Below are positions 33,801-39,800 of a DNA stretch of 64,000 nt, one piece after another. Location of the stretch: the NCBI RefSeq assembly GCF_044647545.1, contig NZ_CP172818.1, one strand, 5' to 3'. Origin of the DNA: Escherichia coli (GTDB lineage Bacteria; Pseudomonadota; Gammaproteobacteria; Enterobacterales; Enterobacteriaceae). How positions within the stretch are numbered: the stretch's first letter is position 1; the number at the start of each line of letters is the position of its first letter. The position numbers were made by a program.

Positions 33801-36800
33801 TCTCACCTCTTTTATTGTTAATACATTAGGGGTAGTCGATGTAGGTGCCAGTTTGCAAGGGAGAGCGGTGTATCACCCATCTTGTAGCCTGGCCCGTAAG
33901 CTGGGGGTGAAGGACGAACCACTTACGCTGCTGAAAAATGTGCGTGGACTGGAGCTGTTGACCTTTGCTGAACAGGATACCTGCTGCGGATTTGGCGGCA
34001 CGTTCTCGGTCAAAATGGCCGAAATATCCGGCGAGATGGTGAAAGAAAAGGTTGTGCACCTGATGGAAGTCCGCCCTGAGTATTTAATTGGTGCTGACGT
34101 GAGTTGCCTGCTGAACATCAGTGGACGATTACAACGGGAAGGGCAGAAAGTCAAAGTGATGCATATTGCTGAAGTGCTGATGAGTCGCTGAGGATATAAA
34201 GATGTCGATCAAAACCAGTAATACAGATTTTAAGACACGCATCCGTCAGCAAATTGAAGATCCGATCATGCGCAAAGCGGTGGCAAACGCGCAGCAGCGT
34301 ATCGGGGCAAATCGGCAAAAAATGGTCGATGAATTGGGGCACTGGGAGGAATGGCGCGATCGGGCCGCCCAGATACGTGATCATGTTCTGAGTAATCTCG
34401 ACGCTTATCTGTACCAGCTCTCAGAAAAAGTGACGCAAAACGGCGGTCACGTCTATTTTGCAAAAACCAAAGAAGACGCTACCCGCTACATTTTACAGGT
34501 TGCCCAACGCAAAAATGCCCGGAAGGTGGTGAAATCTAAATCGATGGTGACCGAAGAGATTGGTGTCAATCATGTGTTGCAGGATGCTGGCATTCAGGTG
34601 ATTGAAACCGATCTGGGTGAATACATTCTCCAGCTGGATCAAGATCCGCCCTCTCATGTTGTGGTCCCGGCAATTCATAAAGATCGCCATCAGATCCGTC
34701 GAGTGCTACACGAACGTCTGGGCTATGAGGGGCCGGAAACGCCTGAAGCGATGACCTTATTCATTCGGCAAAAAATCCGCGAAGATTTCCTCAGTGCTGA
34801 AATAGGTATTACCGGCTGTAATTTCGCGGTGGCAGAGACCGGTTCGGTATGCCTGGTGACCAATGAAGGTAATGCGCGAATGTGTACCACGCTGCCTAAA
34901 ACGCATATTGCAGTGATGGGAATGGAGCGTATTGCCCCCACGTTTGCCGAGGTAGATGTATTGATCACCATGCTGGCGCGCAGTGCCGTTGGTGCACGTT
35001 TGACGGGATACAACACCTGGCTGACAGGACCGCGCGAAGCGGGGCACGTTGATGGTCCTGAAGAGTTTCATCTGGTTATTGTCGATAACGGGCGTTCTGA
35101 GGTGCTGGCCTCTGAATTTCGGGATGTGCTGCGCTGTATTCGCTGCGGGGCTTGTATGAATACTTGTCCGGCATATCGCCATATTGGCGGTCATGGATAT
35201 GGCTCTATTTATCCAGGGCCAATTGGTGCGGTGATTTCTCCGCTACTTGGCGGCTATAAAGATTTTAAAGATTTACCCTACGCCTGCTCTTTATGCACTG
35301 CTTGTGACAACGTGTGTCCGGTGCGTATTCCGCTGTCAAAACTGATTTTGCGTCATCGTCGGGTGATGGCTGAAAAAGGGATCACCGCAAAAGCAGAGCA
35401 ACGGGCGATAAAAATGTTCGCTTATGCCAATAGTCATCCAGGATTGTGGAAAGTCGGGATGATGGCCGGCGCTCATGCGGCAAGCTGGTTTATCAATGGC
35501 GGCAAAACACCACTCAAATTTGGCGCGATTAGCGACTGGATGGAAGCACGCGATCTTCCTGAAGCTGACGGAGAGAGTTTCCGTAGTTGGTTTAAGAAAC
35601 ATCAGGCGCAGGAGAAAAAGAATGGATAATCGGAGCGAATTTTTGAATAACGTTGCTCAGGCACTGGGTCGCCCGCAGCGACTTGAACCGCAAGCAGAAG
35701 ATGCGCCGCTAAACAACTATGCTAACGAGCGGCTTACCGAACTTAACCAACAGCAGCGCTGTGACGCGTTTATCCAGTTTGCCAGCGATGTTATGTTGAC
35801 GCGCTGTGAACTGACCAGCGAGGCGCAGGCCGCAGAAGCTGCAATACGTCTGTGTAAAGAGCTGGGAGATCAGTCGATCGTGATTAGCGGTGACACGAGG
35901 CTGGAGGAATTGGGGATTAGCGAACGTTTGCAGCAGGAATGCAATGTCGTTGTTTGGGATCCGGCGAAAGGTATTGAGAACATATCACAAGCAGAGCAGG
36001 CTAAAGTTGGCGTAGTGTATGCTGAATATGGTTTAACCGAATCGGGAGGCGTGGTTCTTTTTTCCGCCGCCGGGCGCGGGCGTTCATTGAGCCTGCTCCC
36101 GGAATCTTCTCTTTTTATCCTGCGTAAAAGCACTATCCTGCCGCGTGTAGCGCAACTCGCAGAAAAATTGCATCAGAAAGCGCAGGCCGGTGAACGAATG
36201 CCTTCCTGCATTAACATCATTAGCGGCCCCAGTTCAACGGCGGATATTGAGCTTATCAAAGTCGTCGGAGTTCATGGCCCGGTGAAAGCGGTGTATCTGA
36301 TTATTGAGGATTGTTGAGAGAGATATGAAGTCTGGACATAAACCTGAAGAAGGCATACGAGGTTGAAAATAGCGTTTAGGACAACCTGACTTAACCCCGT
36401 TCCGTCATGGTTATGCTGCTCTTCTGTAAATATCCTGGCATTACTAATGCCAGGATATTTAAAGTGAAAAAGACAGGCATCCATTCCTGAAAACGGGTTC
36501 CCTTCCCGGTCATTGTCACTTCAGCTTTATACAGGCACTCTCTATCAGAATGCTGTTTATTACTGCCCAGAGTTTTGTTGGTATTCATCTACCATTTTTT
36601 TGACAAGGCAAAACATTACAGAAATCACAATGCTTAGAAAAAATCCCAGAATCAGGCAAATGGCAGCAGGATATTTACTTTTTATTTCCGGTGAGCTTAT
36701 GGTTACACAGTCATCACCGTTCGGATACAATGACCAGTTCCTGGTCAGGTATATCATTTTTGTATAAAGCTCACTGTTAATTGCTGAAGGTGTTTGTATC

Positions 36801-39800
36801 TCATCGAGAACTTGCCTGCCGTTATGGTATTCTGACGCATACCATTTGATAATAGACGCATGCACGCGAGATATTTCCGCTTCAGCAGTTGGTAAATCTC
36901 TCTTATCTCCTGACCATTCCAGCTTTATTTCTCGTATACAGAAACAACAGCACCATTGCCATACAGATAGCTATAATAAAAAGGATAATACGAATCTTTT
37001 TCTTCAGATAAAATAAAATCTCAATCAGATCGATATCCTGTTTGATTTGTTCACTCATAATATATCCAGAAAATAAAATCTGCCGCAGATAAATGAATTA
37101 ATAGTCTGTATCAGGAATGTTCGGGTTAAATATCAGCAAAAAGCCAGCATCATGAATACTGGATATGAAGCATGAGAGTTACCTCAGTGTTTTATATAAG
37201 GATTCGGTCCTCATAGTAGAACGGTAACTCTCAATCTGATAGGTTCCTGAGTCAGTTCACATCACGACTCATTTTTTTCGCTCTCACCGGCATCCCATTT
37301 GCCACATAATATCCCGCCGTGCTCCTCGGCAACGCATCCTTCCCGCGAATCATATCCGCTATTTTCTCGCCAATCATAATGGTCGTGGCGTTCAAATTGC
37401 CGGTGATAATTTGCGGCATAATTGACGCATCCACCACGCGCAGGCCTTCCAGCCCGTGTACGCGGCCTTCGCCGTCAACCACTGCCATCTCGTCATAACC
37501 CATTTTGCAGGTACCGCACGGGTGGAAGGCGGTTTCGGCGTGGTTACGCACGAACTCATCGAGCTGCTCATCCGTCTGGCATTCGACACCGGGGCTGATT
37601 TCGCGGCCACGATACTGATCCAGCGCCGGTTGATGCATGATCTCCCGGGTGATGCGAATTGCGTCGCGGAACTCCTGCCAGTCCTGCTCGTGCGACATGT
37701 AGTTAAACAGAATCGCTGGATGCTGGTGCGGGGCGCGGGATTTAATCCGCACATGCCCACGGCTTGGCGAGCGCATCGATCCGACGTGGCACTGGAAGCC
37801 GTGCTCTTTCACTGCGTTCGAGCCGTTATAGTTAATCGCTACTGGCAGGAAATGGTACTGAATATTCGGCCACGCAAATTCCTCACGGCTGCGAATAAAT
37901 CCGCCTGCTTCAAAGTGGTTGCTGGCACCAATGCCGGTGCCGCCAAACAGCCACTCCGCACCGATTTTCGGCTGATTCCACCACTGCAGGGCAGGGTAGA
38001 GGGAAACCGGTTCTTTGCACTCATATTGCAGATACATCTCCAGGTGATCCTGAAGATTTTCGCCGACGCCAGGTAATTCATGCACCAGCGGAATATCAAA
38101 CTCCGCCAGCAGTTCAGCGTTGCCGACGCCGGAGCGTTGCAGGATCTGCGGTGAAGCAATCGCGCCTGCACATAACAGCACTTCTTTATTCGCCGCCGCG
38201 CGGGTCGGAATGGTGCTGTCGCCTTCCAGCCACTCGACGCCCACCGCGCGTTTGCCGTCAAAAATGATGTGATCGGTCATGGCGTGAGTACGAATAGTCA
38301 GGTTAGGGCGCGATTTGGCCTGATCGAGATAGCCACGCGCGGTGCTGGCGCGACGGCCATGCGGCGTGACGGTGCGATCCATCGGGCCAAAACCTTCTTG
38401 CTGATAGCCGTTGAGATCGTCCGTGCGCGGGTAGCCCGCCTGCACGCCCGCTTCAATCATCGCTTCAAACAGCGGATTGACGCCGGGTTTGGAGGTGGTG
38501 ACGCTCACCGGGCCATCACCGCCGTGGTAGTCGTTCTCGCCCACATCGCGAGTCTCGGCCTTGCGGTAGTAGGGCAGGCAGTCGAGATAACTCCAGTTCT
38601 CCAGACCAGGTTCTTGTGCCCAGTTATCGAGATCCAGCGCATTGCCACGGATGTAGCACATACCATTGATCAGCGATGAACCGCCCAGACCTTTGCCGCG
38701 TCCGCACTCCATGCGGCGGTTGTTCATAAACGGTTCGGGTTCCGTCTCATAGGCCCAGTTGTAGCGTTTGCCCTGTAACGGGAACGCCAGCGCGGCGGGC
38801 ATCTGGGTGCGGAAGTCAAAGCGATAGTCCGGGCCGCCTGCTTCAAGCAGCAGCACGGTTATGTTCGGATCTTCAGTCAGACGGGTAGCGAGGACGTTGC
38901 CGGCTGAGCCGGCACCAATAATGATGTAGTCAAATTGCAAATAAACCTCCTGGTTAGAATATGGACTGGAATTTAGCCATCTCAACCTGGATGGACTTCA
39001 CCTGGGTGTAACTCTGGAGCGTCATCACGCCGTTCTCGCGACCAATGCCGGAGTGTTTGTAGCCGCCAACGGGCATCTCTGCCGGGGATTCGCCCCAGGT
39101 GTTGATCCAGCAAATACCCGCTTCCAGCTGATGAATGACGCGATGCGCGCGGTTCAGGTCCGCCGTCACGATACCCGCCGCCAGACCGTAGTCGGTATCG
39201 TTAGCGCGGCGAATGACTTCGTCTTCCGACTCGTAGGTCAGAATGGACATCACCGGCCCGAAAATCTCTTCGCGCACGATGGTCATTTCGTCGCGGCAAT
39301 CGGTGAACACGGTCGGTGCAACCCATGCGCCGTTATCGAAGCCATCGCCTTTCAGTACATCGCCGCCGCACAGTACGCGCGCGCCTTCCTCTTTGCCTTT
39401 GGCGATATAGCGCAGCACGTTATCGCGATGCGGGAAGCTGACCAGCGGGCCGAAGTTAGTTTGCGGATCGAAAACGTCGCCCGCGCGAATGCGCTCAACG
39501 CGCGCCAGAATCTTTTGTTCAAATGCGGCTTTGCATTTCGTCGGAACGAAGACGCGAGTGCCGTTGGTACACACCTGACCGGAGCTGAAGAAATTCGCCA
39601 TCATGGCGATATCGGCGGCGAGATCGAGATCCGCATCGTCAAAAACGATCAGCGGTGATTTACCGCCCAGCTCCATGGTCACTTCTTTCAGGGAAGAGGC
39701 CGCCGAGTTAGCCATCACTTTTTTGCCGCTGGCGACACCGCCGGTAAATGACACTTTGGCAATGCCCGGATGCTCGGTCAGATACTGCCCGGTTTCCGCA

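What the first reader, a model, noticed from the sequence alone, without database searches (positions are those of the whole stretch)
36391..37059. ykgH membrane-protein gene split across three frames
A single ~222-codon span is readable only as three successive ORF pieces in different frames, while neighbours ykgG and betA are intact. Two compensating indels are implied.
Basis: partly seen in the sequence, partly recalled or inferred. Interest (0 to 1): 0.25.

Follow-up and report, generated by a model that had tools for sequence, protein, structure and literature searches.

The report
Short ykgH allele, one doubtful frameshift
The "three-piece" ykgH is a common shortened version of a dispensable E. 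coli membrane-protein gene with a single two-base loss found in no other genome, most likely an assembly error, and the third piece is untranslated sequence after the gene.

Summary
The three ORFs in three frames exist on the minus strand at 36391-37058, but they are not one 222-codon gene. K-12 ykgH ends at the stop that lies at window 36560-36562. The third piece (36391-36588) is therefore the ykgH 3' untranslated region, which holds a 16-bp hairpin.

This lineage carries a natural, codon-exact 168-nt in-frame deletion (K-12 codons 42-97). It gives a 166-aa protein that is annotated as intact in the closest genomes. The window differs from those genomes over 951 nt only by the loss of two A's (TATAACAGAG to TATACGAG, about 36933-36935). 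That is one frame change, not two compensating ones, and it sits exactly on the old deletion junction.

The variant is absent from 5,426 complete E. coli genomes, from the GTDB representatives and from the JGI metagenomes.

The window looks like a consensus built on a K-12 template:
- K-12 structure carries non-K-12 SNPs.
- Blocks are K-12-identical where the relatives have no DNA.
- There is junk sequence (A27, C17) or a garbled junction at all three places where more than 100 nt of K-12 is dropped.

I therefore judge the frameshift a probable assembly artefact (about 70%), otherwise an ordinary private pseudogene. In passing, YkgH models as a miniature Wzz-like polysaccharide co-polymerase. 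Interest is low.

The parts
36560..37058 (-). ykgH, short (166-codon type) allele, frame broken after codon 41; 499 nt here against 501 nt in intact relatives
   Evidence: Apart from 2 missing bases, it is identical to the annotated 501-nt CDS WP_022645243.1 of FDAARGOS_497, MS6198 and WP5-S18-ESBL-08. It aligns to K-12 b0310.
36903..37058 (-). Piece 1: start codon, 41 authentic codons (cytoplasmic N-terminus plus first transmembrane helix), then 10 out-of-frame codons and a stop (51 aa)
   Evidence: The exact 51-aa product is present in the 15-billion-protein collection on only one contig, an NCBI contig of 4,499,902 bp.
36933..36935 (-). Frame-change site. Minus strand reads TATACGAG where the closest genomes read TATAACAGAG (two A's missing). 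It coincides with the junction of the lineage's 168-nt in-frame deletion (K-12 codons 42-97).
   Evidence: No exact match to the junction in 5,426 complete E. coli genomes, in the GTDB representatives or in JGI metagenomes.
36560..36932 (-). Piece 2: authentic ykgH reading frame from Arg43 of the short allele to the natural stop (36560-36562). The listed ORF starts at an internal GTG at 36865.
   Evidence: The translation matches residues 43-166 of the 166-aa protein and the K-12 C-terminus ...EYQQNSGQ*.
36391..36588 (-). Piece 3: chance ORF (65 aa) over the ykgH 3'UTR; not part of the gene
   Evidence: It lies beyond the stop codon shared with K-12 and all relatives. No Pfam match.
36318..36559 (.). 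Intergenic region between convergent ykgG and ykgH, which is the ykgH 3'UTR
   Evidence: 242 nt, the same length as in K-12. As RNA the minus strand folds at -58.2 kcal/mol, z = -6.0 against shuffles. The K-12 ykgH 3'UTR was a RIL-seq sRNA candidate that northern blots did not verify (PMC8175672).
36429..36461 (.). Perfect 16-nt inverted repeat (aaatatcctggcatta c taatgccaggatattt) between the two convergent genes; inferred to be a terminator-like hairpin, although it has no U-tract
   Evidence: Read directly from the sequence. It is the dominant stem in the fold. The consensus terminator scan did not report it, and it gives only chance-level Rfam hits.
35622..36317 (+). ykgG (lutC-like), intact neighbour
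   Evidence: No differences from WP5-S18-ESBL-08 in this kilobase.
37252..38940 (-). betA (choline dehydrogenase), intact neighbour

Best explanation
The locus is ykgH. In this lineage it is a natural short allele: a codon-exact, in-frame loss of 168 nt (K-12 residues 42-97) that gives a 166-aa two-pass inner-membrane protein. In the window, that allele additionally lacks two A's exactly at the old deletion junction. Translation from the normal ATG therefore leaves the frame after codon 41 and stops after 51 aa. The rest of the gene reads in the next frame up to its normal stop at 36560. The supposed third piece is the 3'UTR with a strong hairpin.

The two-base loss is most likely not biological. 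The window has the signature of a consensus built on a K-12 MG1655 template from reads of another strain or strains. At each place where such a build has to remove more than 100 nt of K-12, the junction is garbled, and ykgH is the mildest of three such places.

Steps that are shown: the gene boundaries, the 168-nt allele, the single -2 frame change, its absence from every collection searched, and the K-12-structure-with-foreign-SNPs pattern. Steps that are inferred: that the build was K-12-templated, and that the 2-nt loss is a by-product of it.
For: Gene anatomy:
- K-12 ykgH stops at window 36560-36562.
- Over 951 nt the closest genomes differ from the window only by TATAACAGAG versus TATACGAG, and they annotate an intact 501-nt CDS.
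- The 168-nt segment is present in 4,964 of the 5,212 genomes that have the locus. The exact 166-aa protein occurs on at least 1000 contigs.

The change was found nowhere else:
- The junction has no exact match in 5,426 complete genomes, in the GTDB representatives or in JGI metagenomes.
- The 51-aa product occurs on one contig only.

Artefact signature of the window:
- Window 1-13,367 is 100% K-12 except for an IS1. The first other mismatch, at 13,380, comes 12 nt after the point where the relative WP5-S18-ESBL-08 begins to have homologous DNA.
- Window 13,368-46,900 is 99.99% WP5-like in its SNPs, yet it keeps K-12's structure at a 6.3-kb indel and a 585-nt indel. No complete genome has either combination.
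- All three sites where more than 100 nt of K-12 is missing are garbled. These are ykgH (-170 instead of -168 nt), the IS3 site in eaeH/fdeC (identity decaying from 99% to 71%, A27, C10, A/C-rich junk) and the 405-nt prpB-prpC repeat region (C17, A11).
- Elsewhere in the window there are patches of indel-rich changes seen in none of the references compared, next to blocks with no change from K-12.
- No path from the full-length or the short allele reaches the window's junction in fewer than two mutational events (reasoning from the sequences).
Against: - No reads are available, so the artefact is inferred from context only.
- The 33-kb block around ykgH is otherwise very clean (4 SNPs, no other indel outside fdeC). 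A genuine private mutation in a dispensable gene would look the same.
- A 91-nt insertion relative to K-12, at 29,210-29,302, is rendered perfectly, so the process does not always blur indels.
- I could not name the record or its assembly method.
- The lesion-dense patches at 47-64 kb are not fully explained by any simple version of the template model. Two specific mechanisms that I tested failed.
Confidence: 0.68

Rival explanations
1. The two-base loss is a genuine, strain-private mutation. On this reading ykgH, already shortened by the 168-nt deletion in this lineage, has become a true pseudogene. It would encode only a 51-aa N-terminal stub (cytoplasmic tail plus the first transmembrane helix), possibly with a 101-aa restart product from the internal GTG.
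For: - The frame is broken relative to intact, otherwise identical orthologues.
- ykgH is dispensable. It is used as a neutral chromosomal integration site (PMC9923381) and has no known function.
- The short allele already lacks a conserved part of the family, including a Cys pair, which suggests relaxed constraint.
- The flanking 33 kb is of high apparent accuracy.
Against: - The change sits exactly on the junction of an older deletion. For a random position in a 33-kb block, that is roughly a 1-in-10,000 coincidence.
- It needs two separate one-base losses 2 nt apart.
- It is found in no other genome, metagenome or protein record.
- The same window shows clearly non-biological sequence at the other large K-12 differences.
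Confidence: 0.27
2. One reading: a 222-codon ykgH split into three frame pieces by two compensating indels.
For: Three ORFs in three frames tile a 669-nt span, which equals the K-12 gene length.
Against: - The K-12 stop codon aligns to 36560, so the third ORF lies outside the gene.
- The boundary between pieces 2 and 3 is identical in every reference, including K-12, and carries no indel.
- The 669-nt coincidence arises from the 168-nt internal deletion.
- The third ORF has no protein-family match.
Confidence: 0.02
3. Programmed +1 ribosomal frameshifting restores a near-normal YkgH from the interrupted gene.
For: A +1 shift anywhere between codon 42 and the stop at codon 52 would rejoin the authentic frame. 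An AAA-G lysine codon in that interval could in principle re-pair in the +1 frame (read from the sequence).
Against: - There is no slow codon or stop codon at the candidate site, and no stimulatory element.
- The interruption is absent from all relatives, which encode the protein in a single frame. There is therefore no conservation of a recoding site.
Confidence: 0.01

Closest known systems
E. coli K-12 ykgH (b0310, NP_414844.1), uncharacterised predicted inner-membrane protein
   Same: - Same position between convergent ykgG and the betA side, with the same start codon context and the same stop codon.
- 94% identity over the shared residues.
   Different: - The window's allele lacks K-12 codons 42-97 (168 nt).
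- It also has a 2-nt loss at that junction which breaks the frame.
166-aa short YkgH allele (WP_022645243.1) of strains such as FDAARGOS_497, MS6198 and WP5-S18-ESBL-08
   Same: Identical over 951 nt around the gene, apart from the two missing bases.
   Different: Those genomes keep the frame. The window does not.
Polysaccharide co-polymerases (PCP: Wzz/WzzE, Wzc, KpsE)
   Same: - Two transmembrane helices flank a periplasmic alpha/beta domain plus a helical hairpin.
- An N-terminal Wzz-type motif and a C-terminal GNVR-type segment are detectable across the YkgH family.
- All of the best Foldseek PDB matches to the model are Wzc, WzzE or KpsE.
   Different: - YkgH is far shorter (about 220 aa) and lacks the long periplasmic helical barrel.
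- K-12 YkgH itself is below Pfam and NCBIfam thresholds.
- It has no adjacent polysaccharide genes.
- No function has been tested.
Reference-templated (non de novo) consensus assemblies and their characteristic errors
   Same: - Template-identical blocks where the sample has no DNA.
- Template structure carrying sample SNPs.
- Garbled sequence at large structural differences.
   Different: - The method of the source record is unknown to me.
- The indel-rich patches at 47-64 kb are not explained in detail.

Membership tests
ykgH orthologue (E. coli b0310) | Synteny: convergent with ykgG, upstream neighbour on the betA side | tested here: met
ykgH orthologue (E. coli b0310) | Sequence identity to K-12 YkgH over the shared length, with the same start and stop | tested here: met
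   94% identity for the short allele.
ykgH orthologue (E. coli b0310) | Uninterrupted reading frame of 222 codons | tested here: not met
   There is a 168-nt in-frame deletion shared with about 5% of genomes, plus a 2-nt loss found only in this window.
   The second boundary is the normal stop codon. Piece 3 is 3'UTR.
Genuine frameshift pseudogene | Frame broken relative to intact close orthologues | tested here: met
Genuine frameshift pseudogene | Lesion supported by reads or by independent isolates | not testable with these tools
   No reads are available. There is no second occurrence.
Reference-templated assembly artefact | Template (K-12) structure combined with non-template SNPs, a combination absent from natural genomes | tested here: met
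   Junction alignments. No complete genome matches either combination.
Reference-templated assembly artefact | Template-identical sequence exactly where the related strain lacks DNA | tested here: met
   Window 1-13,367 has no mismatches to K-12 outside IS1. The first mismatch, at 13,380, is 12 nt after the start of WP5 homology. A natural island insertion would give the same pattern, so this feature is only supportive.
Reference-templated assembly artefact | Garbled or low-complexity sequence at large template-versus-sample differences | tested here: met
   Three of three sites where more than 100 nt of K-12 is dropped.
Reference-templated assembly artefact | Assembly metadata or read pile-ups showing the method and the coverage | not testable with these tools
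   The record could not be identified.
Polysaccharide co-polymerase (PCP / Wzz) family, for the YkgH protein | Wzz N-terminal domain (PF02706) above the curated threshold | tested here: not met
   K-12 YkgH scores 18.5 bits against a cut-off of 25.5 (E = 0.0025). Seven of the 12 aligned sequences match at E <= 0.1, best 9e-4. NCBIfam WzzB and MPA1 matches are far below their cut-offs.
Polysaccharide co-polymerase (PCP / Wzz) family, for the YkgH protein | C-terminal GNVR-type segment with the second transmembrane helix (PF13807) | tested here: inconclusive
   K-12 YkgH gives E = 0.56. Six of the 12 aligned sequences match, best E = 5e-8.
Polysaccharide co-polymerase (PCP / Wzz) family, for the YkgH protein | PCP protomer fold | tested here: met
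   The AlphaFold2 model has pLDDT 84.6. The top Foldseek PDB hits are exclusively Wzc, WzzE and KpsE (E from 4.5e-4, probability 1.0, TM 0.43-0.51). The similarity is moderate, and the periplasmic helical part is much shorter.
Polysaccharide co-polymerase (PCP / Wzz) family, for the YkgH protein | Role in polysaccharide chain-length control or export | not testable with these tools
   No experiment was found. The literature treats ykgH as uncharacterised or as a neutral locus.
Programmed ribosomal frameshift | Conserved slippery site with a stimulator, with the interruption conserved among relatives | tested here: not met
   The interruption is absent from all relatives. No canonical signal is seen in the sequence.

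The most novel reading that the evidence does not exclude
The two-base loss is real. On that reading, a miniature Wzz-like co-polymerase homologue confined largely to Escherichia is caught in stepwise decay within one lineage: first a 56-residue in-frame deletion that removes a conserved Cys-pair subdomain and now sits in about 5% of complete genomes, then a private frameshift at the same spot. That would suggest the deletion junction is itself mutation-prone.
Probability: 0.25. Interest if true: 0.12.

Novelty: not a real feature. Interest (0 to 1): 0.06.

Why it matters
It matters little for biology. ykgH is dispensable and uncharacterised, and a private frameshift in it would be a routine pseudogene.

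The practical value is as a warning.
- Overlaying a reference gene length (222 codons) on a different allele created a false three-piece gene.
- This window appears to come from a K-12-templated, partly garbled assembly. Other "pseudogenes" in it (fdeC, yahD-J, yahL/M, prpB-D) should not be read as biology without reads.

There are two small by-products. YkgH belongs to a small family of about 220-aa proteins with a polysaccharide co-polymerase-like fold. A 56-residue deletion allele of it is common in E. coli.

Tried and rejected
- **Two compensating indels.** Rejected by alignment to K-12 and four other alleles.
- **An independent 170-nt deletion from a full-length allele.** Rejected, because no single deletion of the full-length sequence yields TATACGAG. 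The flanks are identical over 951 nt to the 168-nt-deletion haplotype.
- **Private indels as consensus drop-outs at sites where two co-assembled strains differ.** Rejected. 39 of the 51 window-only deleted bases in 46.5-58.5 kb lie where K-12 and WP5 agree.
- **Lesions in yahE/F/G/I from mis-mapped reads of the paralogous fdrA-ylbE-ylbF-ybcF cluster.** Rejected. The paralogue is only about 70% identical, and the window is no closer to it than K-12 is.
- **A better natural relative for 47-64 kb.** CFS3292 is K-12-like there and removes none of the private changes.
- **Programmed frameshifting.** No signal and no conservation.
- **Identifying the source record.** All attempts failed:
  - exact-product contig look-ups;
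  - a scan of GTDB representative genomes;
  - a JGI metagenome scan;
  - a literature search for the contig length.
- **PDB and Rfam.** A sequence search of the PDB with YkgH gave only chance-level hits. Rfam gave nothing meaningful in 36200-37300.
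Full report
**What is in the sequence.** On the minus strand of 36391-37058 there are indeed three ORFs in three frames: 36903..37058 (51 aa), 36560..36865 (101 aa) and 36391..36588 (65 aa). 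The flanking genes are ykgG (35622-36317, +) and betA (37252-38940, -). Both are intact and identical to the closest complete genome.

**Where the gene really ends.** I aligned the window to K-12 MG1655 ykgH (b0310, 222 aa) and to four other alleles. The K-12 protein ends ...EYQQNSGQ*, and that stop codon is window 36560-36562. The second ORF therefore runs to the natural end of the gene.
- The third ORF lies wholly in the 242-nt ykgG/ykgH intergenic region, which is the ykgH 3'UTR. It has no protein-family match.
- It overlaps a perfect 16-nt inverted repeat at 36429-36461.
- As RNA the region is unusually stable (-58.2 kcal/mol, z = -6.0).
- In K-12 this 3'UTR was a RIL-seq-predicted Hfq-associated sRNA candidate that northern blots did not confirm (PMC8175672).

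**Why 669 nt looked like one gene.** This lineage carries a codon-exact, in-frame deletion of 168 nt that removes K-12 residues 42-97.
- In the closest genomes (FDAARGOS_497, MS6198, WP5-S18-ESBL-08 and others) the result is an annotated, intact 501-nt CDS of 166 aa, WP_022645243.1.
- Of 5,212 complete genomes with the locus, 4,964 contain the 168-nt segment, so roughly 5% carry a short form.
- The exact 166-aa protein is recorded on at least 1000 contigs.
- Counting 222 codons from the start codon of this short allele overruns the true stop by about 170 nt and picks up the chance ORF.

**The only real interruption.** Over 951 nt the window differs from those genomes at one spot. The minus strand reads TATACGAG where they read TATAACAGAG, so two A's are missing, on the plus strand either side of G36934. 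This is a single -2 frame change after codon 41. The product from the normal ATG is 41 authentic residues plus 10 out-of-frame ones. There is no second, compensating indel.

**Is that change real?** The variant was found nowhere else.
- The junction has no exact match in 5,426 complete E. coli genomes, in one genome per GTDB species or in JGI metagenome contigs.
- The 51-aa product exists in the 15-billion-protein collection on a single unannotated NCBI contig of 4,499,902 bp.
- The lesion lies exactly on the junction of the older 168-nt deletion.
- No route from either the full-length or the short allele reaches the window's junction in fewer than two events.

**Context in the window.** The context argues for an artefact.
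- *K-12-identical block.* Window 1-13,367 is identical to K-12 (the CP4-6 end and paoABCD), except that the IS1 at 1169-1941 differs by 4%. The first other mismatch, at 13,380, is 12 nt after the point where WP5-like genomes, which lack that island, start to be homologous.
- *Foreign SNPs on K-12 structure.* Window 13,368-46,900 is 99.99% identical in SNPs to WP5-S18-ESBL-08. It nevertheless keeps K-12's structure at a 6.3-kb indel (24,346) and at a 585-nt indel (29,163), with WP5 alleles right up to the K-12-type junctions. No complete genome has either combination.
- *Garbled junctions.* All three places where the window omits more than 100 nt of K-12 sequence are garbled:
  - At ykgH, 170 nt is missing instead of 168.
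  - At the IS3 site in eaeH/fdeC, 2.5 kb matches fdeC with identity falling from 99% to 71% and contains A27, A11, A10, C10 and A/C-rich junk.
  - In the 405-nt repeat region between prpB and prpC, the junction is replaced by C17 and A11.
- *Noisy patches.* Further right, K-12-like sequence carries indel-rich changes seen in none of the compared references, in yahD-J, yahL/M and prpB-D. These sit beside blocks (yahK; yahN-yahO-prpR) with no change at all from K-12.

The simplest reading is a consensus built on a K-12 template from reads of another strain or strains. On that reading the ykgH frameshift is an imprecise rendering of the true 168-nt deletion. I put this at about 70%. A genuine private mutation in a dispensable gene is about 27%.

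**Caveats.**
- I have no reads and could not identify the record.
- A 91-nt insertion relative to K-12 is rendered cleanly.
- Two specific mechanisms that I tested for the noisy patches failed.

**What YkgH is.** The literature treats it as an uncharacterised predicted inner-membrane protein (bioRxiv 10.1101/2024.11.06.622226) and uses the locus as a neutral chromosomal integration site (PMC9923381). In some strains a UpaB/HyxB autotransporter island sits between ykgH and betA (PMC4844996; SK1144).
- An exhaustive HMMER search found only a small family: Escherichia proteins plus a handful of relatives of 211-229 aa at 21-31% identity.
- K-12 YkgH is below threshold for Pfam Wzz (18.5 against 25.5 bits). 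Across the 12 aligned sequences, however, Wzz matches 7 and GNVR matches 6, with a best GNVR E-value of 5e-8.
- An AlphaFold2 model (pLDDT 84.6) has two transmembrane helices around an alpha/beta domain plus a helical hairpin.
- Its best PDB matches are exclusively polysaccharide co-polymerases, namely Wzc, WzzE and KpsE.
- YkgH therefore works like, or at least is built like, a miniature co-polymerase. Membership by curated sequence thresholds is not met, and no function has been tested.
- The 56-residue deletion removes the strand-helix-helix-strand unit after the first transmembrane helix, including a Cys pair conserved in the family. The common short allele may therefore already be impaired.

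**Verdict.** The finding is an ordinary locus misread. It consists of a known short allele, one frame change that is probably an assembly artefact, and a chance ORF in a 3'UTR. Interest is low.

Noticed in passing
window 1-64000 (blocks: 1-13,367; 13,368-46,900; 46,933-64,000): The window is a mosaic.
- The first block is 100% K-12 MG1655.
- The second is 99.99% identical to WP5-S18-ESBL-08-like strains but keeps K-12 structure at a 6.3-kb indel (24,346) and a 585-nt indel (29,163). No complete E. coli genome has either combination.
- The third is K-12-like with noisy patches.

This looks like a consensus built on a K-12 template. The broken proteins from it occur only on one NCBI contig of 4,499,902 bp.
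   Followed up: partly
window 24,346-28,240 (fdeC/eaeH region): - The 5' part of fdeC carries five small indels.
- From 26,460 the sequence becomes a compressed, degenerating copy of fdeC (82-88%, then 71-76% identity).
- It contains A/C-rich low-complexity junk at 26,680-26,920 (C10 at 26,799, A10 at 26,905) and A27 plus A11 at 28,121-28,164.
- It sits exactly where K-12 has IS3.

This is not natural-looking E. coli sequence.
   Followed up: partly
window 46,933-54,220; 55,655-57,263; about 61,000-64,000: There are patches dense in changes seen in none of the references compared, with about as many indel columns as substitutions.
- They break yahD, yahE, yahF, yahG, yahI, yahJ, yahL, yahM, prpC and prpD, and they extend prpB to 318 aa.
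- Next to them, yahK, yahN, yahO and prpR have no differences from K-12.
- yahI, yahJ and prpB-D also carry natural-looking third-codon-position variation from a third lineage.

The cause is unresolved.
   Followed up: partly
window 61,235-61,287: A C17 run and an A11 run replace the 405-nt repeat-containing prpB-prpC intergenic region of K-12. Relatives that lack the region read GAAATAAAAC/ACAACG here, without the runs.
   Followed up: partly
window 1,169-1,941: An IS1 sits at the same position as K-12 IS1C but differs from it by about 4% (30-31 mismatches), inside 13 kb that is otherwise identical to K-12. This is what is expected if reads from other IS1 copies overwrote the template copy.
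   Followed up: no
window 36,429-36,461 (within the ykgH 3'UTR, 36,318-36,559): A perfect 16-nt inverted repeat lies between convergent ykgG and ykgH. The 3'UTR RNA is very stable (z = -6). The K-12 equivalent was a RIL-seq sRNA candidate that northern blots did not verify.
   Followed up: partly
K-12 YkgH (L003:4700-5365, minus strand) and relatives P0207-P0229: - YkgH belongs to a small family of about 220-aa two-pass membrane proteins.
- Family members carry weak Wzz and GNVR signatures.
- The predicted fold has only polysaccharide co-polymerases (Wzc, WzzE, KpsE) as its best PDB matches.
- The 56-residue deletion allele, in about 5% of complete genomes, removes a conserved Cys pair.
   Followed up: partly
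window 29,163-29,302: The aldo/keto reductase remnant (K-12 ykgQ region) has K-12's 585-nt deletion but retains 91 nt that K-12 lacks, and it carries WP5-type SNPs. This configuration is seen in none of 5,426 complete genomes.
   Followed up: yes
L004 (strain SK1144), ykgH-betA interval; compare window 37,059-37,251: In some strains an autotransporter island (hyxB/upaB with the regulators AutA and AutR) is inserted between ykgH and betA. The window has the short, island-free interval.
   Followed up: no
proteins P0174, P0190 and P0196 (other unannotated NCBI contigs of 4.44 and 4.76 Mb): Other unannotated NCBI assemblies also yield frameshifted or substitution-laden YkgH fragments. Noisy E. 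coli assemblies of this kind are therefore not unique to the window's source.
   Followed up: no
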